Of a DNA stretch of 64,000 nt, positions 20,001 through 41,900 are shown in pieces. The notes under the pieces were generated by a model. It saw only the letters and a list, made by a program, of their open reading frames with translations. It had not been told where the DNA came from and searched no databases. How positions within the stretch are numbered: the stretch's first letter is position 1; the number at the start of each line of letters is the position of its first letter. The stretch is from Zootoca vivipara (lineage: Eukaryota), in the NCBI RefSeq assembly GCF_963506605.1, contig NC_083280.1:45322001-45386000 (forward strand), given 5' to 3'. The translations under genes were made by a program, and so were the position numbers.

Positions 20001-22544
20001 CTCAGTTTGGAGGCACTTGTGAAGCACACATTCCCTTGCCATCAGGACGTAAGGAGTCTTGTTATGTATTTCTTTCACATTTTTGAAATGTTCTTTGTAC
20101 CGGTTTAAGCTTGTGGGCTACGGATCACTACCAGCCTTTGCGGATCTTTGCTGGCCATCTTGCTGATGTCACATCGACGCGTTTTCACCCAAACTCCAAC
20201 TACGTTGCTACAGGCTCAGCAGATAGGACTGTGCGGCTGTGGGATGTCCTGAATGGGAATTGTGTCAGAATTTTCACAGGACATAAGGTAAATTAATGTG
20301 AAAATAGCACTGAAATACATTAGTTGCAGAAAAATGGTAACTGTAGATGGCTGAAACCTTTGCACACAGTAGTAGAAAATAGTTAAAAACTGACCTGTTG
20401 CTCAGTTTCCTTTTGAACTTATCTTTTAACTTCCCACTGGGAAAGAAGAGGTCATCTAAGAAGAGGTGATACAGAGTGCTCTGAAATGACATTATTTATT
20501 TGAAGGGTGCTTGCTAAGTAAAACAAGGCATACTGTTGACAGTTTTGTTTTTGGATTTTATATATAGGATTTTCTGTAGCTTTGAGTTATCATTTCTAGT
20601 GTAATTTACCTTCTAGTGTAATTTACCTTGTAGGTGATACATAACGTGTTTCTCATAAAATAAGACGTGCCTATAAAATAAGCCATGGCACGATTTTCTT
20701 GAGGCAACAAAATATAAGACATACCCCCAAAATAAGCCGTTATGGGGTAGTGGTGGGAGCAGGTCTGGATGGCGCTTCTGTAAGGAGCCGGCAAAAGCTG
20801 CAGCGGGACCCAGCAAGAGCCGCAGCACGCGGCGCGCCCTGACTGAGTGGGAGCCAGCGAGAGCCGCAGCGTGCGCCGAGCCCCGACTGAGCGGGAGCTG
20901 GCAAGGGCCGCAGCGTGCGCCGCACCGAGCCACGACCCAGCCGGACCCAGCAAGAGCTGCAGCGGGTACTATACTTAATAAAAAAATAAGACATCCCCTG
21001 AAAATAAGCCGTGGTGTGTTTTTTGGAGGAAAAATAAATATAAGACACTGTCTTATTTTAGGAGAAACACGGGAAGTGTTGTTGCTGTTGTTAATAGGCT
21101 TATTTTTGTTCCAGGGACCAGTTCATTCATTGGCATTTTCTCCTAATGGAAGATTCTTGGCAACTGGGGCAACAGATGGAAGAGTGCTTTTGTGGGATAT
21201 TGGGCATGGTTTGATGGTTGGAGAATTAAAAGGACACACAGACACAATCTACACACTCAGATTCAGTAGAGATGGAGAGATTTTAGCATCAGGTATTTAA
21301 GTCAATTTCGCTCTGGAATCTATCACCTGGAATCTTAGACTTGCCTCTATTTTGACAGCTCAGTCTTCCATTTAGTGAGGAATTGTTAATGCATAGAATA
21401 CTCATTTAATACTTTAATTTGCTAGCCTTGTCTGTTAACTAAAAAAACTGAACCTAAAGGACTAGATGGTGCCATATCCAACCAACTTTCCATGTATAGC
21501 AGCAGACTGGCAAATGGTGAGGGGAGGTATCATGTACTGCACCTGTGGGAAGCCAGATAGCTTGGGAGCTGCAGGAGAGGCCACATGGCGCACAGCTTTG
21601 TCCATAAACACACTGCTTCTACACTGTACCCCCCCAGCATCCACCACCTGAGGCTAACAGGCCATCCCCGAACTTCCTTTTATGCAATTATACACCTTTT
21701 GAAACAAAGCTATTATCTACGGTATGTATTTACCAAAGTGGACATGCTAAATTAGGGCAGGCTTTGCAGAATACTTTAAATATTTTTCTCATCAGAATTT
21801 GGCTTTTTTTTTAACCTATTATGAACAAGAAGTGAGCCTTTCTGAAAAAGTAAATGGGTTTAGAAGTTTAACCGTCCTTATTCATTCTCACCCACTGTAA
21901 TTTTATTAGCATCAGCCCCCAATCTACCCAAATATATACTTTTTACTATTGCTGGGGTTTCAGCTTGTATCTTTTAAACTATAAATTATGAGAGTGGGAC
22001 GTGCATTTTCTGTCCTGTTACTAGAATTTTAGAAACATTGGGTCGTATTCTACAGAGTCCATAGATGAGTGAAATGGGTTCCAACTCATGCATTAGGACT
22101 TCCTCTCCTCCTCCTCCTCCCCTGCAAGCAGGTTGGAGGATCTTTGAAATGGCTTTATCTTTGAAAGGCTATTAACTACTACAGAGTACTTAGCAGTGAA
22201 TATAAGTGATTAGTATTTTTTAAGATCCTCAGCTTGACAAATGGGTTGTGGTGTATAGTGGATGTTTTTTCTTTATATCCAGAATTAAATGTTATGTCCT
22301 GTTAAATTAGTTTTCATTTTTCCTAGGTTCAATGGATAACACGGTAAAGCTATGGGATGCTGTGAAAGCCTTTGAGGACTTAGAAACAGATGATTTTACT
22401 ACAGCCACTGGACATATAAACCTGCCTGAAAGCTCTCAAGACTTGCTGTTGGGTACATACATGTCCAAATCGACCCCTGTCACACACCTTCATTTTACCC
22501 GCAGAAATTTGCTTCTTGCTGCTGGGGCATACAGTCCTCAGTGA
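11060..22544 (+). CDS. TAF5: TFIID subunit TAF5 (LisH, NTD2, WD40 repeats), 11 exons, 804 aa
   Basis: Exons: 11060-11633, 12613-12847, 13705-14020, 14701-14864, 15806-15941, 16601-16721, 17526-17655, 18871-19035, 20110-20287, 21115-21292, 22327-22544. Total 2415 nt with consistent phases. Diagnostic peptides: DRQTLLAVLQFLRRSNLRE, EDQPDVSAVLSAYNQQGDP, WD40 repeats (LWATDHYQPLRIFAGH, GHTDTIYTLRFSRDG) and C-terminus AAGAYSPQ*. Confidence 0.97.
11804..11939 (+). mobile_element. L2-type LINE 3' tail fragment
   Basis: Near-identical to 62745-62870. Confidence 0.8.
15143..15278. mobile_element. hAT-type hairpin MITE
   Basis: TIRs CAGGCATCCCCAAACT...; perfect 8-bp TSD ATCTAGGA. Confidence 0.9.
15428..15563. 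mobile_element. hAT-type hairpin MITE
   Basis: Same internal sequence as 15143-15278; TIR TTCCTCAAACT...AGTTCGAGGAA. Confidence 0.8.
19404..19593. mobile_element. Tc1/mariner-type MITE nested in an older hAT-like element (~19136-19877)
   Basis: Ends CAGTAGT... and ...GATACTACTG|TA with a CpG-rich interior. Flanks carry hAT-like ends (AGGGTAGGGAACCT... / ...AGGTACCTCATCCCTG). Confidence 0.6.
20644..21072. mobile_element. pogo/Tigger-like MITE with internal GC-rich ~42-bp repeats
   Basis: TIR CGTGTTTCTCxTAAAATAAGAC / GTCTTATTTTAGGAGAAACACG, with repeated AAAATAAG(A/C)C subterminal motifs. Confidence 0.75.
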
Positions 22545-24936: not shown

Positions 24937-25093
24937 CTGTCAAAAAAATAAACATGATTCAGTTACTATATCTTGCACAACTTCTATTTATTAACACACA
25001 GTGGCAGTATTTTGCCCAAACCAGGAAAATTCATATACTGGCTTGTTCTGAAGCCATTAACCAGTTTCCTGGCTCAGACAAAATGGGAAATTA

Positions 25094-25268
25094 CAGTGGT
25101 ACCTCGGTTTATGAACACAATCGGTTCCGGAAGTCTGTTCATAAACTGAAGCGTTCATAAACTGAAGCGAACTTTCCCATTGAAAGTAATGGAAAGTGGA
25201 TTAATCCGTTCCAGACGGGTCCGCGGAGTACTCAACCTGAAGCGTACTTAACCTGAAGCATGGCCTGC
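25094..25268. mobile_element. Tc1/mariner-type MITE (related copy, degenerate right end)
   Basis: TA|CAGTGGTACCTCGGTTT...; the first ~130 bp are nearly identical to 25312-25440. Confidence 0.8.
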
Positions 25269-25311
25269 ACCTTGTCTGTCTGAGTTATGGTCTCCCTGTC
25301 CAGGGTTTATA

Positions 25312-25499
25312 CAGTGGAACCTCGGTTTACGAACACAATCGGTTCCGGAAGTCTGTTCATAAACTGAAGCGTTCATAAACTGAAGTGAACTTTCCCATTG
25401 AAAGTAATGGAAAGTGAATTAATCCGTTCCAGATGGGTCTGCGGCGTTCGCAAACCGAAAATTTGTAAACCGAGGTGTTCGTAAACCGAGGTTCCACTG
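25312..25499. mobile_element. Tc1/mariner-type MITE
   Basis: Perfect 25-bp TIR CAGTGGAACCTCGGTTTACGAACAC with TA on both flanks. Confidence 0.9.
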
Positions 25500-26231
25500 T
25501 ATAGTTAACAGAAGACTTCCTGGTTGGTTTGCTGGCTCACACATTGGGGGGGGGAAGGTTAAGGCTTATTAAGCAGATACAAATCGGGGATACACTGTAC
25601 TAACATGAAATAACAGGCTATTTAGTTGGGCAGAACTTAAAGGTATGCTCACAACTGGATGTCAAGAGGATATGAAAGCAACCACTTGCCCTTATTTCTG
25701 CATTAATATACTCTTTTGTCATGCCGCTCAGTGAAGAACTGAGTGACATAAAATACTGTAGGATAAAAATGCACATGCTGAGCAATTGCTGCTATCTGAA
25801 CTATCAACATTTCCTTAGCCAACTCTATTAAGACATCTATGAAATTTAAACTCATGGCAAACATCTCAGGTTTCAAACACAAGCAAATTAACTTTGCATA
25901 TCCTGTATCAAATTCTGGTACTATGCATCTGCTCCTGGTGTTTGATTAGCTGAAGAATACAGTGTTCTGCAAACTTTGTTATGCCATTTAAGAAAGCAAT
26001 TCTATGTTCAAGCTGAGATTAGAGACAACAACATATGATACAATATTCTTGGTAAAAAATAACTTCATTCATGTTGCAATCTGCTTAAAGCCCTATGAAA
26101 AGATTTACTTGTAACAATACAAGTGCTTAGGATCCTAAACTTGCATTTGACATTTCATGTACAGATACCTGTATTTCTGGAGGTTTTAAGCCCTACTGGC
26201 ATCAGTAAAATATGGTAGACACTTACCCATC

Positions 26232-28329: not shown

Positions 28330-28910
28330 TCTGCATAACCGAGCCAAATCAGCGCCCACCGCAGTTATTACCCGTTTCTCCTCCCGATAACAACCATTCA
28401 ATGTCCTTCGCGTGCAAGATGGCGTCGCTCAAACAGCCGTCCTTTCCGCTTGCCTCTGATTGGCTGAAGCGCGCCGCCCTGCAGAGTAAGGCGGCACTGC
28501 TTCAGAAAAGTATGGTGTGATTGGGCAATTTGCGTGTTTGTCAAAGTTACCGGATTCCTTTCGCTCTGTGACGACTAATAAACCGTCCCGCGAGTTCTAC
28601 CACGGCCCGGTTTCCGTAAAGCCCACTTCCGGTTGCCCTTTGCTGGCCTTCGAATTCGTTTCCGGGTTACGGAGCAGATGGCTGCTCTCACTCGTCAGGC
28701 GTGCCAGTGACTTGAAGAAGCGTGGGGGAAAGGTACATAAGCTGAGCTCTCTGGAGAAGAGGGATAATGAAGGAAAGGAGGGTGGGCTAAGGAGAGGGGA
28801 CCGAATCCGACTGAGCTGGGGATTGAGAAATACGGCAAGGTGGGTTACACGTGTAGAACTAGCGTGGCGGGTTCGCCGCCGGAGTGCCTGCTGTGACGCG
28901 TCTCCGCTCT
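28330..28910. promoter_or_regulatory. Bidirectional CpG-island promoter of ATP5MK/PDCD11
   Basis: CpG-rich. YY1-type CAAGATGGCG at 28415-28424, reverse CCAAT boxes (GATTGG at ~28458 and ~28519), ETS/GABP CACTTCCGG at 28624-28632. Probable PDCD11 non-coding exon 1 donor AAG|GTACAT at ~28733. Confidence 0.75.
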
Positions 28911-35900: not shown

Positions 35901-38900
35901 AAAAGTAGAACTTTTGACAGATATTGAAGGAATCCAGAAAATGATTAGAGTGAAAGGAGAGAAAGTTAAGATAGAAGAGATTAAAGAAATAATGAAATGC
36001 ATCTAAGCTAATTGGAAAAATAAAGTAGCATAACAAGAATGGCTGGAAGTCAAGTCACTTGGTCCGTGTGGGGTAGGCATAGCTGCCAAGTTTTCCCTTT
36101 TCTCGCGAGGAAGCCTATTCAGCATAAGGGAAAATCCCTTTAAAAAAGGGATAACTTGGCAGCTATGGGTAGGTGTGTAGGTATGTTGATATGTATAGTT
36201 TAGGTAGGTATTATATAGAGTAATGTAGGCATGTTTTATGCTATGAAAATAAGGTAGTGTCTTGTGTATATGTATTGTGTAAATGTATGCATTTTATATG
36301 TTAATAAGATTTTTAAAAACTATAAAAAACAGAACAGCTGAGATGGCTACATTATACACACCTGTGTAGTGGATTGCATCTGCACATTTTTAAAATTGGT
36401 TCCCTAGGTATCCAAACTTTCTGCCTTCAGGTGATGTTTTGCTCCTTCAGTTGCAAAGGAAAATCTGTTGAGTCCAGACACTTTCTGTCCAGACACATCC
36501 ATTACCCCACCCTATGTACACCAAGGCCAGTATCGGTCTAGATCATGGCACATAATGTGAATGATATTTAGACCTCATTTAGATAATATATACCAAGTTT
36601 CATACTGACAGCACAGATATAAAAAGAGCCAGTATAGTGGCAGGCCAGGAACATAGGAGACCAGGGTTCAAATCTCTGCTTGGCCATGAAGCTGACTTGG
36701 TGACCTGTTCTGAAGGGCAGGAGGAAGAATTGGAGGTGGGGGCGAATCGGTTCTCTTTACTCTTTCATCTGTTTCTCTTCCACCTCACAGATCAATTTTC
36801 ACTTCCCTTCTTTTTGTTTGCAGACACATTATTGAGGCTCCATTCCTGAGATACCATGATATTCATCCTGGACAGGTGGTGGAAGTAAGTTCAGGGAGAA
36901 AAAAATAATCCTTGAAATCTTGGTTATCTTGCTGAACAAACCTGAGGCGAGGGCTTTGGTCCAATTTTGTCCAGCAATTATTTCCTTCTGACTTGTGTGC
37001 TTAATGTCTCTTTGAACCTAAATCCTGCTGTGTGACATTAATGGAACACTATTAATTTCACTTTAGCATAGCAAAGCAGTTGCATTAGTTGTACAGAAAT
37101 CAGTCTGGTTTCTGCTACATTCCACAAAGTTAGGTGCAATGGATTTGCCTATCATTTAGTTAATGTAATCATGCTTTATTTAGATATTTATATGCTGCTT
37201 TTTAGGCAAGCCTTGCCAGGCAGTCATCATAAAAAGGTTTAAATAATGAACATCAATTAAACTGTATGATAAAACAATAAACATAAGCTTCAAGGGGGAA
37301 ATGAAATTATTGAAAGCTAGATCTCTCCCCTTCAAGATGGTTCTTAAGTAACGCTGTAGTAGCAGCTGAGGGGAGAGGGACATTTGGGGGCTGGGGTAGC
37401 CAATGTGGTGCCCTCCAAATGGTTGCCCAAAGGAGTTGTTGGGCTGCAGCTCCCATCGCCTCTGACTGTTTGTCATGCTGGCTGAGGCTGATGGGAGTTA
37501 GAGTCAAACATTTGACATGGCCCACATTCGCTACCTGAAAGCTAAATGGAGGGCATCTCTTTCTGTACTAGTTTTTCTTGCTTTCTGATCCCTCGTTCTT
37601 TTGGACTTTAGTGCACGGTGTTGGCTCTGAAGCCCTTTGGCATGCAAGTAAAGGTGACTCAGCACATCAAGGGCCTGGTTCCCCGACTGCATCTGGCAGA
37701 TGTGCTTCTGAAACAGCCAGAGAAGAAATACAGTGTGGGGAGCACTGTCCGGTGTCGGGTAAGAACTCTCTGTAAGGGACCACTTTGGACTGCTTTATCG
37801 ATTTCTCTAGCAAGGAAAGACCAAGGGGGCTTCCTCCATGCAATAATCTGTCTTTATAATGAGAGCTGCTGTGGTTCTGTGGGTAACATTAGGTTGAATG
37901 TGCAAAACCTAGGATCAGAATCCCTCTTAGCCATTGTGTTTACTGTGTAATCCTTGGATCAGTTACTATCTCTCAACCTAGCTTATTCAGAACTAGTGTC
38001 TTCAGCCCGTTAAATAAACGGGCGCTAGAATGCATGCCGGCTCCTCGATCCGGTGCTCCGCGCAGCGCTGATCAGCGCCGACCCGGCAGGCCACCAGATC
38101 AAGGAAGCGGCCTGCCAGGTCGGCACCCAGCAGCGCTGCACGAAGCACCGGGGGGACTGGCGGCGGGGAAGACAGGCAGGCGCTTGCTCTATTGCCTGCC
38201 TGCATTCCCCACTGCCTGTCACACGAAGATCGGCGGGCGCTGTTTGCCGGGGTTGACAACCCCGGCAAACAGCGCCCGCCGATCTTCGGCTGTCCCCCGA
38301 TGCGCTACGGCTCGGGGAAGCAGGCAGGGAGACGCAACAGCCCGCAGCTTCCCGGGCTGTTGCGTCTCCCTGCCTGCTTCCCCAAACTAAAGCGCGTGGG
38401 GGACAGAGCCGAACTGCGGCGCGGGGGGGGGGCTTTTCGCCGTTTGCCTTCCCCGAGCTAAGGGGGAGGCAAACGGCAAAAAGCCCCTGCCACGCTGCAA
38501 TTCGGCTCCGGGACTGGCTTGGCGGTGGCGGGAAGAAGGGGAGGAATTCCTCCCCTTCTTCCCGCCACCGCCAAGCCAGTCCGCAGTGGGGGCTTTTCGT
38601 CGTTTGCCTTCCCCCCAGGGGGAGGCAAACGGCGAAAAACCCCGCCGCACCATACTTTGGCTCGGAGACTGGCTTGGCGGCGGCGGGAAGAAGGGGAGGA
38701 ATTCCTCCCCTTCTTCCCGCCGCCGCCAAGCCAGTCCGCGAGCCGAAGTGCGGCGCGGCGGGTGCTTTTCGCCGTTTGCCTCCCCCTTCACTCCGGGAAG
38801 TCAAACAGCGAAAAGCCCCCGCCGCGCCGCACTTCGGCTTGGGGACTGGCTTGGCGGCGGCGGGAAAAAGAGGTGGAATTCCTCTTCTTTCCGCCGCCGC

Positions 38901-41900
38901 CAAGCCAAAGCCGGCTTCCCTCGGCGCCCGCTGCCGCTTCGGCCGAGGAAGCGCCGTCCCATGCCGGAGGTGCGCGGCAAGGCTGCCGGGGGGAGCGCTT
39001 CTTTCCCCCGCCGCCTCGCCGCGCACCTCCAGCATGAGACTGGGCTTCGGAGCGGCGGTTGGCGGAGCGGCGGTTGGCCGTTGTCCCTCCGTCCAATCCC
39101 TGTGTCGCTGGGGTACATGCGCAGTACCCCAGGGACACACGGGACAACTGGACGCAGGGACAACTTGGACATTATTATATAGGATTGTAGTGAATCTAAA
39201 ATGGGGATGATGACATGTATTCATAATTTCTAATATTTCTATTTTACCTACTCAGAAGTAAGGCTTGCTGAGTTCTGTGGGACTTGCTGGCAGGTGTGTA
39301 GGATTACAGCCCCACAGGATGAGATGTAAACAGTGTTTCCGTCTAGGCAGGAGTTTGTGGCAGAATTCTGGGGCCCCACTCAGCAGAATGAGCAGGAGAG
39401 GCCCCGATGCAGTCAGACTGGGTTGCTACATATTTAACAAGGTGAAGTAATAAACATTACCAATTAAAGAGGATCCCACGGTAGGACGCTTAAGAGTCTA
39501 AAATTACAATCCTTTCTTCCTTTGCACTGACTTCAGCACTGACATCCTTGACTTTAGCACAGACTGCAAGCCCTGCTTTTGGTAGGCAACTTCTGAGTGC
39601 AGCTTCTTCTAGCAGGGCTTGAAGTTGGCACCAATCAGATGATTGCTGCTAACTTTAGAAGGGATTGCCTCCACTTGGTATTTTAAAGGTGCCGAATGCA
39701 AGCCCTGCTTGCCTAGGAACAGTTGAGAGCTCACTTTAAGGCTCTGAATTGCTCCTTTACAGATACGTCTTAACCTGTCACACACCTGATATCATCTGAC
39801 ATCAGGTCTTGGGCAAGTGGGTGTGCCTTAGGGAAATAACCTTGTCAGCCACATTAGGACCCATGCAGTGGCCCATTTAGCTTGCAAGCCAGAGATTTCC
39901 CATGCCTATTTTGAATAGTTAAAGAAGTATTATTCAAGTCCTGTTACAGGATGAGCTCTGTCTCTGACAGCTACCTCCTAAAATTTCGTAGCCCTTACAT
40001 TTCTAAGGTGATGGGTTGTGCCAGCCGTATTAGGACTGAGCCCATGAGTTCCAAGCTGACATTTTGGACATTCCTTCATTTTGATTCAATTGCAGTTTCC
40101 TGCCAGTTGGCATATATAATTCCAATTTCTTTTTCTTCTCCAGGTGCTTTCCTGCAATCCTGAAGCAAGGAAACTCGCTCTGACGCTTAAGAGAACACTT
40201 GTCAATTCTGAACTCCCTGCCGTTTCCAGTTATGAAGATGCAAAGCCAGGCTTGATCACCCATGGTTTTGTTGCATGTGCTAAGGACTTTGGCTGCATTG
40301 TGAAATTCTATAACGACATAAAGGGCCTTGTTCCCAAAAATGAGCTCGGTGGGGCACCTTCAATTGTTCCTCAAGAAACATTTTATGCAGGCCAGGTAAA
40401 AGCTGGGTAAAAGTAAAAAGTCTGATTATACTTGATATAAATTTTTTAGTTGTTAATAGCTGTACACATTTGCATAACAGATTTGCGTAACATCTTTAAT
40501 GCACATTTGTCTAGTGATAGAACATGAGTTGCAGATTATTGTTACCGAATTCGACCCTTGATATGCTTATGTAGTAGGACATACCAGTAGCAGTGGTCTC
40601 TCTTCCTCTCTTGAAAAACATTTAAGTAAAAGATTTTGAACTACTAGTAAAATGACTTCTGGTACATTTGTTACTTTAACACACAGAGAGGCATAAAGCC
40701 AGTGGAAAGTTACAAAACTTCCACATTTTATCCAGGTAAAGTGGAGGAAAATGGGTTAGGACCCAGATAGGATGCAGTAGTGGGATGTTTGGGGACACAT
40801 TCAGGTGATCCTGTTTTTGAAGTGTGAGAGTGAACATGCCTGCAATATGAAGATTCTTTTGTTTTGCTCATCAGGTGGTCAAAGTGATTGTCTTAAAATG
40901 TGAGCCTGAGCAGGAGAGACTGCTGCTGTCATTCAAGCTGACAAATGAAGCACTAGCTGAGGATGGTGGAGGAAAAAAGACTTCAAAGAAGCGAGAAGTA
41001 ACATATGAAACCGGACAGGTAGTTAATTCTAAAAGATCTCCTTTCCCTGGTAGACCTGTTGACAATCCGTTAGGATGCTAGGAGCAAAGACAGGAATTTA
41101 TGATATTTCTAACTTGGGTTTTATTTCATACAAAACGATTAGATTATCAGTTCATATACAGTGGTACCTCAGGTTAAGTACTTAATTGGTTCTGGAAGTC
41201 CGTACTTAACCTGAAGCGTACTTAACCTGAAGTGAACTTTTCCATTGTAAGTAATGGAAAGTGGATTAATCCGTTCCAGATGGGTCCGCGGAGTACTTAA
41301 ACTGAAAGTACTCAACCTGAAGTGTACTTAACACTTAAGGTATGACTGTATCTTAAGAAGGACTATGCTATGGGGTCCCAATTATAGTACTACTTCATGC
41401 AAACATGGAGCATTTCTGTTGGATTTAAACCACTTATTCTTACTTGAAGTGTTCTGCACATCAGAATAAATGCTCAATCTGGTTGGTCTAGATTTAAATT
41501 TAAACATAAATTATTATCTTCACTTTGAACTCCCCTCCCACATTCATCAGTATACCAACACATATTGTTTCATTGATAACCTAAGAGTAATAATGACTAT
41601 TGCACTTACTGAATCTAAGCACAACCAGAAGGGCTGCTGAATAGGCATTTAACGATGTAATGATGAATGTTATCTGTCAGCTATATTCTATACTGTTCCC
41701 CACCTCCTTTTTAAAAATCAATTCACAAACCAAGAACTTATACAATGACCACTAATAATGAACTATTTGTTGTAGATATTACTGCAGATTTATTGTGCTA
41801 TTTTTGTTATAGTCAAATAAGAACTGGTTTGTTTATTTATTTGTATCGATTATTATTCCTATGATCCTTGTTTATAAAACCCAATAAAAAGTTATTCAAA

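What the first reader, a model, noticed from the sequence alone, without database searches (positions are those of the whole stretch)
38224..38910. Alternating array of long perfect palindromes with arm-symmetric substitutions inside the Helitron
Seen: a 65-nt inverted repeat with 32-bp arms and a 1-nt spacer (38224-38288), a second hairpin (~38314-38384), then an A-B-A-B-A-B array with ~155-180 bp period. Unit A is the hairpin GGGGCTTTTCGCCGTTTGCCT...AGGCAAACGGC(G/A)AAAA(G/A)CCCC. Unit B is a spacerless palindrome centred on GAATTC: perfect over 72 nt (38511-38582) and 70 nt (38667-38736), and degenerate at ~38848-38907. The first two B copies differ by a change mirrored on both arms (GGCGGTGGCG/CGCCACCGCC versus GGCGGCGGCG/CGCCGCCGCC). 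Inference: arm-to-arm templated correction or fold-back synthesis in the ssDNA intermediate of rolling-circle transposition. The array should form cruciforms in DNA and a chain of 30-36 bp dsRNA stems in PDCD11 pre-mRNA, a potential source of endo-siRNA/miRNA, editing or fragility.
Basis: partly seen in the sequence, partly recalled or inferred. Interest (0 to 1): 0.7.

Follow-up and report, generated by a model that had tools for sequence, protein, structure and literature searches.

The report
Helitron carrying borrowed Tigger hairpin mosaic
A 1.2-kb rolling-circle transposon in an intron of a lizard ribosome-assembly gene, absent in two of four samples checked, is filled with long DNA palindromes that it shares with, and likely copied from, an older cut-and-paste transposon family; the palindromes decay rather than self-repair, apart from one likely DNA-copying slip in this copy.

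Summary
The palindromes are real and are a family trait. They lie in a 1192-bp non-autonomous Helitron (37993-39184, minus strand; ends like Heli1Xen1) in a PDCD11/RRP5 intron; 2 of 4 samples hold the empty site. The A-B array is a zig-zag of one ~88-nt monomer whose unit number varies between copies. The proposed mechanism mostly fails. In 41 copies, 234 substitutions break a stem and 1 pair is mirrored (about 1.3 expected). The quoted mirror change is two CpG transitions, also present in a TIR element. The same hairpin modules fill an older Tigger/pogo-like cut-and-paste family and are absent from the autonomous Helitron; 27 of 44 Helitrons picked by their 5' end share such interiors. They were probably captured, not made by rolling-circle fold-back. 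One templated event stands out: only this copy (1 of 65) has the 65-nt palindrome perfected, with its centre base inverted. That marks an inter-strand switch, not fold-back; read contigs neither confirm nor refute it. No RNA evidence. The scan had no look-alike; one note on other DNA of this genome reports CpG-rich capture by a Helitron.

The parts
37993..39184 (-). Non-autonomous Helitron, 1192 bp, inserted between A and T; polymorphic insertion
   Evidence: A|TC...CTAG|T; one contig skips exactly 1192 nt in runs X2 and X8, flank contigs enter the element in X1 and X4
39080..39184 (-). Helitron 5' end, 105 nt, 93% identical to the autonomous partner
   Evidence: start TCCTATATAATAA also in Heli1Xen1 (compared by eye)
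37993..38031 (-). Helitron 3' end with terminator hairpin (38005-38023) and CTAG (37993-37996)
   Evidence: 92% over 39 nt to the autonomous partner; like the Heli1Xen1 3' end (by eye)
38050..38151 (.). Imperfect hairpin next to the 3' end; origin unresolved, not found in the TIR elements sampled
   Evidence: the 40 scored of 411 candidates were 96-100% identical, mostly at known Helitron places
38151..39052 (.). Interior made of hairpin modules shared with Tigger/pogo-like TIR elements; its left border matches the fixed start of the GC-rich interior in the TIR family
   Evidence: L172 colinear over 38216-38697 at 90.3%, L132 over 38667-38956 at 85.7%
38224..38288 (.). H1 palindrome, perfect only in this copy. 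38224-38259 equals the reverse complement of the family's centre plus right arm (changes at 38241, 38243, a 1-nt loss near 38252, centre T>A at 38256)
   Evidence: not confirmed by read contigs
38314..38383 (.). H2 hairpin, 31-bp arms, 8-nt loop; perfect in the family majority
38404..38907 (.). Zig-zag array: five alternately inverted ~88-nt monomers (half A + linker + half B; one with a shortened linker) plus two partial ones, giving A1-B1-A2-B2-A3-B3
38511..38582 (.). B1, 72-nt spacerless palindrome carrying the mirrored CpG transitions
   Evidence: all pairs intact in 12 of 22 copies; the same mirrored state in TIR element L172
38667..38736 (.). B2, 70-nt spacerless palindrome; overlap zone of two TIR-type blocks
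38948..39048 (.). Imperfect hairpin, also matched in TIR elements
37759..40143 (+). Host intron of PDCD11/RRP5; the element is antisense and starts 234 nt after the splice donor
   Evidence: GT and AG read; upstream exon hits Pfam S1_RRP5 at E 2.7e-07; downstream exon hits Rrp5 chains at E 2.6e-20

Best explanation
This is a young, still polymorphic non-autonomous Helitron whose palindrome-filled interior is shared with, and was likely captured from, an older Tigger/pogo-like cut-and-paste family, and whose palindromes now decay as likely neutral cargo, apart from one likely inter-strand template switch that perfected the 65-nt palindrome in this copy. Shown: Helitron ends and an autonomous partner; presence/absence between samples; the same modules, in one case 482 nt in the same order, inside TA-flanked TIR elements; single-arm decay across copies; varying unit number. 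Inferred, step 1: in the TIR lineage, short inverted copying (template switching, probably during gap repair after excision) made long hairpins from neighbouring sequence, and tandem duplication of a head-to-head dimer turned one of them into the A-B zig-zag. Inferred, step 2: a Helitron template-switched into such an interior (the left border has a shared CCGG). Once one module was on board, homology let it pick up further blocks; the array looks like two TIR-type blocks joined in B2. This would explain why only interiors and no TIR ends were taken. Inferred, step 3: rolling-circle transposition multiplied the result; slippage between units and deletions across hairpin tips changed the unit number. 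Inferred, step 4: in this copy a polymerase briefly copied the opposite strand over up to 36 nt, rewriting the left arm of H1 and inverting its centre base.
For: Ends: 95 of 100 extracted elements are A|TC..CTAG|T and 5 follow another copy's G. 8 intact 1658-aa RepHel frames; two fetched are 99.97-100% identical, share both ends with this element and none of its interior. Empty site in 2 of 4 runs. Modules in 11 of 11 TIR elements chosen for holding them and in 22 of 30 chosen only by the TIR-side junction, covering 38151-39052 but neither Helitron end. That junction occurs at 152 places and lies 66-121 nt from a TIR in 28 of 30. The family's ends bound a decayed DDE_1 copy, L255. TIR ends are older: 7.3% from their majority against 1.1-3.2% for Helitron ends. 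27 of 44 Helitrons picked by the 5' end have 20% or more TIR-interior matches, with 0 hits to shuffled interiors and no Helitron ends in 32 TIR interiors. Decay; 206 of 481 substitutions are CpG transitions. Early symmetry: linkers flanking A agree in 6 of 6 TIR and 48 of 57 Helitron cases, probably from about two founding events. H1 switch: 1 clean case in 101 mutation clusters, 1 place in the genome; the closest sister copy L028 has the imperfect form.
Against: Direction is not proven. In the block tree the 3 true TIR rows form their own clade (98/96) beside older Helitrons, and the tree has no root (a fourth row labelled TIR, L042, is a Helitron with TIR elements inserted nearby). No TIR end was found in 100 Helitrons, so a third, unsampled source is possible. 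No single TIR element holds the whole array. Most TIR-family members are short and AT-rich: only 2 of 30 picked by the TIR alone matched the element. The perfected H1 was not seen in contigs of X1 or X4, both of which carry the insertion; such contigs drop rare variants, and another private base, 38488, was also unseen in X1. The spacer inversion rests on one base.
Confidence: 0.68

Rival explanations
1. The palindromes arise and are kept by fold-back synthesis in the Helitron's single-stranded intermediate, and the TIR elements got them from Helitrons.
For: Two different zig-zag arrays occur in sister Helitron subfamilies (period 155-177 here; period 152 in L088, L116, L143). Arrays reach more units in Helitrons (A up to 6). 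The tree does not fix the direction.
Against: No mirrored excess in 41 copies. The second array also matches TIR interiors. The autonomous Helitron has none of the modules. TIR ends are more diverged. The one templated event inverts the spacer, which needs the other strand (PMC5453318, passages). Helraiser needs double-stranded donors and makes double-stranded circles, though only one strand is used (PMC5876387, abstract).
Confidence: 0.12
2. Both families drew the hairpin modules independently from a third source (a host GC-rich locus or another repeat).
For: Neither family carries the other's ends. The modules do not come from the decayed pogo copy's flanks as far as read.
Against: Nearly every locus examined from the B-core and H1 searches lay in a Helitron or a TIR element (L162 was unclear). 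The Helitron block begins where the TIR interior begins in a junction fixed at 152 places.
Confidence: 0.14
3. The perfect 65-nt palindrome of this copy is an assembly or polishing error at a hairpin; the rest of the picture stands.
For: No contig in X1, X4 or X9 links the perfected left arm to its flank or spans the centre. An inverted mis-mapping would give the same letters.
Against: 0 of 64 other H1 instances show it. Only one arm is rewritten. Such contigs drop rare variants, and X1 also lacks the private base at 38488 while holding the copy-specific 38066-38133 contig. The event type is common in real genomes: 23% of human-chimp events (PMC5453318, passages).
Confidence: 0.2
4. The stems act as RNA in PDCD11 pre-mRNA (small-RNA source, editing substrate or splicing control) and are kept for that.
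For: Very stable predicted fold; lies in a transcribed intron.
Against: The insertion is absent in 2 of 4 samples. Stems decay on one arm. No Rfam family reaches its gathering score among the 150 of 165 matches listed.
Confidence: 0.05

Closest known systems
Heli1Xen1 non-autonomous Helitrons (Li and Pollet 2025, PMC12001565; abstract, passages, section 20 and supplement search hits seen)
   Same: 5' TCCTATATAATAA start and 3' GCCCGTT..AACGGGC hairpin before CTAG (by eye); present in Lacertidae; young, polymorphic, captures sequence.
   Different: The paper reports captured coding sequence. Its main text has 0 hits for 'palindrom' and 1 for 'hairpin'. Here the cargo is a hairpin mosaic shared with a TIR family. 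The RepHel sequences were not compared.
Composite non-autonomous DNA transposons of Anolis carolinensis (Novick et al. 2010, PMC3014272; passages)
   Same: Inter-element recombination and uptake of other transposon pieces; Helitron-2N3 holds Poseidon and SINE pieces; TcMar-N11 and N17 have Tigger-like ends.
   Different: There Helitron capture is called rare (one family) and 'palindrom' has 0 hits. Here 27 of 44 sampled Helitrons carry TIR-type interiors.
Bat Helitrons carrying host sequence including DNA transposons (Thomas et al. 2014, PMC4224331; passages)
   Same: Helitrons carry pieces of other transposons; promoter-bearing ones reach higher copy numbers.
   Different: No palindromic cargo in the passages seen ('palindrom' 0 hits).
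Short-range template switch, type 1-3-4-2 / 3-1-2-4 (Loytynoja and Goldman 2017, PMC5453318, passages; yeast REG2 case in PMC8604942, passages; PMC8794818, abstract)
   Same: A cluster of four changes explained by one 36-nt reverse-complement copy that perfects the arms and inverts the spacer.
   Different: The spacer is a single base, and the event is seen in one assembly only.
Tigger family of pogo transposons (PMC9219625; passages)
   Same: The partner family has TIRs of about 24 bp and TA duplication, and its ends bound a decayed DDE_1 frame.
   Different: The long members hold mostly unique GC-rich hairpin mosaics in place of a transposase.

Membership tests
Helitron (canonical, non-autonomous) | 5' TC and 3' CTRR, inserted between A and T without duplication | tested here: met
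   95 of 100 elements; empty site lacks exactly 1192 nt
Helitron (canonical, non-autonomous) | Short hairpin about 10 nt before the 3' end | tested here: met
   38005-38023
Helitron (canonical, non-autonomous) | RepHel-coding partner with the same ends | tested here: met
   8 frames of 1658 aa; 93% over 105 nt and 92% over 39 nt in 2 of 2 fetched
Heli1Xen1 | Terminal sequences like the published ones | tested here: met
   supplement hits compared by eye; similar, not identical
Heli1Xen1 | RepHel at least about 81% identical to the published consensus | not tested
   the consensus was not retrieved
Tigger/pogo (partner family) | Short TIRs and TA duplication | tested here: met
   10 of 11 long elements have TA on both sides; 21 of 26 closed elements from the TIR-only sample
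Tigger/pogo (partner family) | DDE_1 transposase between the same ends | tested here: met
   L255, broken frame, family ends on both sides; 1 of 24 DDE_1 loci examined
Tigger/pogo (partner family) | Placement in the Tigger clade on a transposase tree | not tested
   no tree built; 'Tigger-like' rests on the ends (partly recalled) and the DDE_1 hit
Inter-strand template switch mutation | Mutation cluster fully explained by a nearby reverse-complement copy | tested here: met
   4 of 4 changes, 36 nt
Inter-strand template switch mutation | Spacer inverted | tested here: met
   centre T>A, one base
Inter-strand template switch mutation | Variant confirmed in reads | tested here: inconclusive
   not seen in contigs of X1, X4, X9; contigs drop rare variants
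Self-correcting palindrome array (concerted arm evolution) | Mirrored substitutions above chance across copies | tested here: not met
   1 observed, about 1.3 expected, 234 breaks; 0 against 89
Known microRNA or structured RNA family | Rfam gathering score reached | tested here: not met
   none of the 150 listed of 165 matches
Transposon-derived small-RNA locus | Small-RNA reads or A-to-I edits on the stems | not testable with these tools
   no small-RNA run was offered

The most novel reading that the evidence does not exclude
Two unrelated transposon classes in this lizard share one pool of GC-rich hairpin modules, and the newly arrived Helitron loads them repeatedly and preferentially, by homology-primed template switching, because a self-folding interior compacts and shields the peeled-off single strand and so raises transposition. 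The palindromes would then be selected at the level of the transposon.
Probability: 0.2. Interest if true: 0.7.

Novelty: new variant of a known kind. Interest (0 to 1): 0.42.

Why it matters
Helitron capture of other transposons is known but was called rare in a lizard. Here most sampled members (27 of 44) of a young family, with near-identical intact partners, carry hairpin interiors shared with a cut-and-paste family. That gives a natural system to test how Helitrons capture DNA and whether cargo structure affects their success. The family also spreads long GC-rich spacerless palindromes (119 places for the 26-nt core) as presence/absence variants. These allow direct counts of hairpin deletion and template switching, and the H1 change is a clean textbook example if reads confirm it. 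For PDCD11 itself the insertion is probably neutral.

Tried and rejected
Ongoing arm-to-arm correction: rejected. The 63 'restoring' changes are largely states shared by a subfamily, CpG transitions or mosaic copies; they were listed, not counted as corrections. A second candidate switch (L017) is equally a direct copy from another unit or a 3-nt slip plus a CpG change, and was not counted. Block tree for direction: uninformative. Read check of the perfect H1: inconclusive; X1's k-mers with T at 38241 are explained by other copies. RNA: no RNA holder listed, and 0 reads laid from about 6% of run X21; this is no test. Rfam matches are generic hairpin hits. Origin of the 38050-38151 hairpin: unresolved. 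Long open frames across the element were not scanned and are taken as a by-product of high GC. The TIR end count of 3099 places does not argue for direction, since most members are short and AT-rich. Literature: no description of this shared hairpin mosaic came up in searches (open-access library only; most hits seen as listings; Repbase and Dfam entries could not be checked). No look-alike in the scan's own notes.
Full report
Observation. The region folds far better than shuffles (z -35). Further hairpins at 38050-38151, 38155-38220 and 38948-39048 bring stem cover to 69% of the element, against 0 in shuffles. Cutting the array at each palindrome centre and reversing every second piece aligns five copies of one ~88-nt monomer. 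The array is therefore a head-to-head, tail-to-tail zig-zag, not two separate units.

The element. It runs from 39184 to 37993 on the minus strand, from A|TC to a hairpin and CTAG|T. It lies in an intron of PDCD11/RRP5, antisense, 234 nt from the donor. The genome holds 22 full-length copies among 40 scored candidates and 337 exact 5' ends of the wider family. Of 100 extracted elements, 95 are A|TC..CTAG|T and 5 follow another copy. Eight intact 1658-aa RepHel frames exist. Two fetched copies are 99.97-100% identical, share both ends with this element and hold none of its interior. The ends resemble Heli1Xen1 by eye, a family reported in Lacertidae. Two of four runs hold the empty site, with one contig skipping exactly 1192 nt; two carry the insertion.

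Against family majorities, 41 copies in four clusters carry 481 substitutions. Of these, 234 break a stem and 1 pair is mirrored, with about 1.3 expected by permutation; 206 are CpG transitions. With the eight local stems named explicitly, 22 copies show 89 breaks and 0 mirrored pairs. The 63 pair-restoring changes are largely shared subfamily states, CpG transitions or mosaic copies. The quoted B1/B2 difference is a CpG transition on each arm and is in the majority sequence. Other subfamilies carry the left-arm change alone. Ongoing correction is therefore not supported. Unit number does vary (A up to 6, B up to 4 among array-bearing copies), and several deletions cross hairpin tips (L020/L022, L037, L071, L090), as expected if the stems form during copying (inference).

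Where the palindromes come from. Searches for the H1 and B modules returned loci with no Helitron ends. They are TA-flanked elements with TIRs of about 24 bp, whose ends also bound a decayed DDE_1 copy, so they are Tigger/pogo-like. One of them, L172, holds 38216-38697 in the same order at 90.3%, including B1 with the mirrored change; L132 and L080 hold 38667-38956 and 38667-38940 at about 86%. The junction between this family's subterminal hairpin and its GC-rich interior occurs at 152 places. Of 30 such loci, 28 have the TIR close upstream, their interiors are mostly unique mosaics, and 22 match the window element, together covering 38151-39052 but neither Helitron end. The Helitron's shared block starts where that interior starts. 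Of 44 Helitrons picked by their 5' end, 27 have at least 20% of their length matched by TIR interiors, with 0 hits to shuffled interiors. This includes a second zig-zag of period 152 with no match to the first. TIR ends are more diverged than Helitron ends: 7.3% against 1.1-3.2% from the majority. I infer capture from TIR elements into the Helitron. Against this, the block tree does not fix the direction, no TIR end lies in 100 Helitrons, and most TIR-family members are short and AT-rich, with only 2 of 30 matching.

The linkers on both sides of an A hairpin agree at a non-CpG site in 6 of 6 TIR and 48 of 57 Helitron cases. These descend from about two founding palindromes, so this is a small sample, but it fits each long palindrome being made by local inverted copying after the monomer had diverged. 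That step is seen in TIR elements too, so it needs no rolling circle.

The one templated event. Only this copy has H1 perfect: 1 of 65 instances and 1 place in the genome. It differs from the majority by two substitutions, a 1-nt loss and a T>A at the centre. All four are explained by a 36-nt reverse-complement copy of the centre and right arm, the only clean case among 101 mutation clusters. The sister copy L028, which shares nearby private bases, keeps the imperfect form. Spacer inversion cannot come from fold-back of the new strand; it marks an inter-strand switch (PMC5453318 and PMC8604942, passages). It could have happened during chromosome replication or on a double-stranded Helitron circle (PMC5876387, abstract). 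Caution: contigs of X1, X4 and X9 do not show it. Such contigs drop rare variants, and X1 also lacks another private base, so an assembly error stays possible (about 20%).

RNA. Nothing was shown. No Rfam family reaches its threshold among the 150 of 165 matches listed, and the RNA run laid was no test. Polymorphism and one-sided decay point to neutral cargo.

Comparison and verdict. The element meets the Helitron tests and looks like Heli1Xen1 at its ends; the RepHel was not compared. Capture of transposon pieces by Helitrons and exchange between elements are known (PMC4224331 and PMC3014272, passages), and so are template switches that make or perfect hairpins (PMC8794818, abstract). I found no description of a hairpin-module pool shared by a Tigger-like family and a Helitron in searches, which cover open-access papers only. 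The host is a lizard by an earlier scan note (e1-9927881), not tested here. Verdict: observation confirmed, interpretation partly supported, new variant of a known kind, interest 0.42.

Noticed in passing
L088, L092, L116, L142, L143 and others: A second zig-zag array (period 152; about 1 to 8 units) in sister Helitrons, with no match to the window's array but matching TIR-family interiors.
   Followed up: partly
L206-L235, L080, L127, L132, L134, L136, L169, L172, L173, L175: Long Tigger-like elements (0.5-2 kb) with a fixed start and mostly unique GC-rich hairpin mosaics; the family may deserve its own study.
   Followed up: partly
L236-L243, L256-L259: Eight intact 1658-aa RepHel frames with equal scores; the two fetched (about 6.6 kb) are 99.97-100% identical, so the family is likely still active.
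   Followed up: partly
L019 and L025 (G000 C6, 24.855-24.858 Mb): Two copies about 1.2 kb apart in opposite orientation, 99.3% identical over 305 nt; L025 is cut at the centre of B3.
   Followed up: no
L023, L048, L092, L097: Helitron copies nested in, or joined head-to-tail to, other copies (CTAG|TCC).
   Followed up: no
L091, L099, L124, L106, L102, L105, L100, L117: Sister Helitrons with GC-rich but hairpin-poor cargo and no TIR-interior match; possibly the captured gene starts of note e1-9927881.
   Followed up: no
window 11060-21295 and about 28400-28900: A GC-rich first exon and WD-repeat exons that look like TAF5 (recalled, not searched), and a second GC-rich promoter-like stretch upstream of PDCD11.
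   Followed up: no
window about 20640-21075: A small element with pogo-type ends (label recalled) and a GC-rich 44-nt tandem repeat inside (20802-20922).
   Followed up: no
window 25092-25600 and about 41157-41400: Further Tigger-like MITE ends (TACAGTGG...), nested at 25092-25501.
   Followed up: no
window 15143-15278 and 15433-15558: Two imperfect inverted repeats with arms of 56-59 bp, not examined.
   Followed up: no
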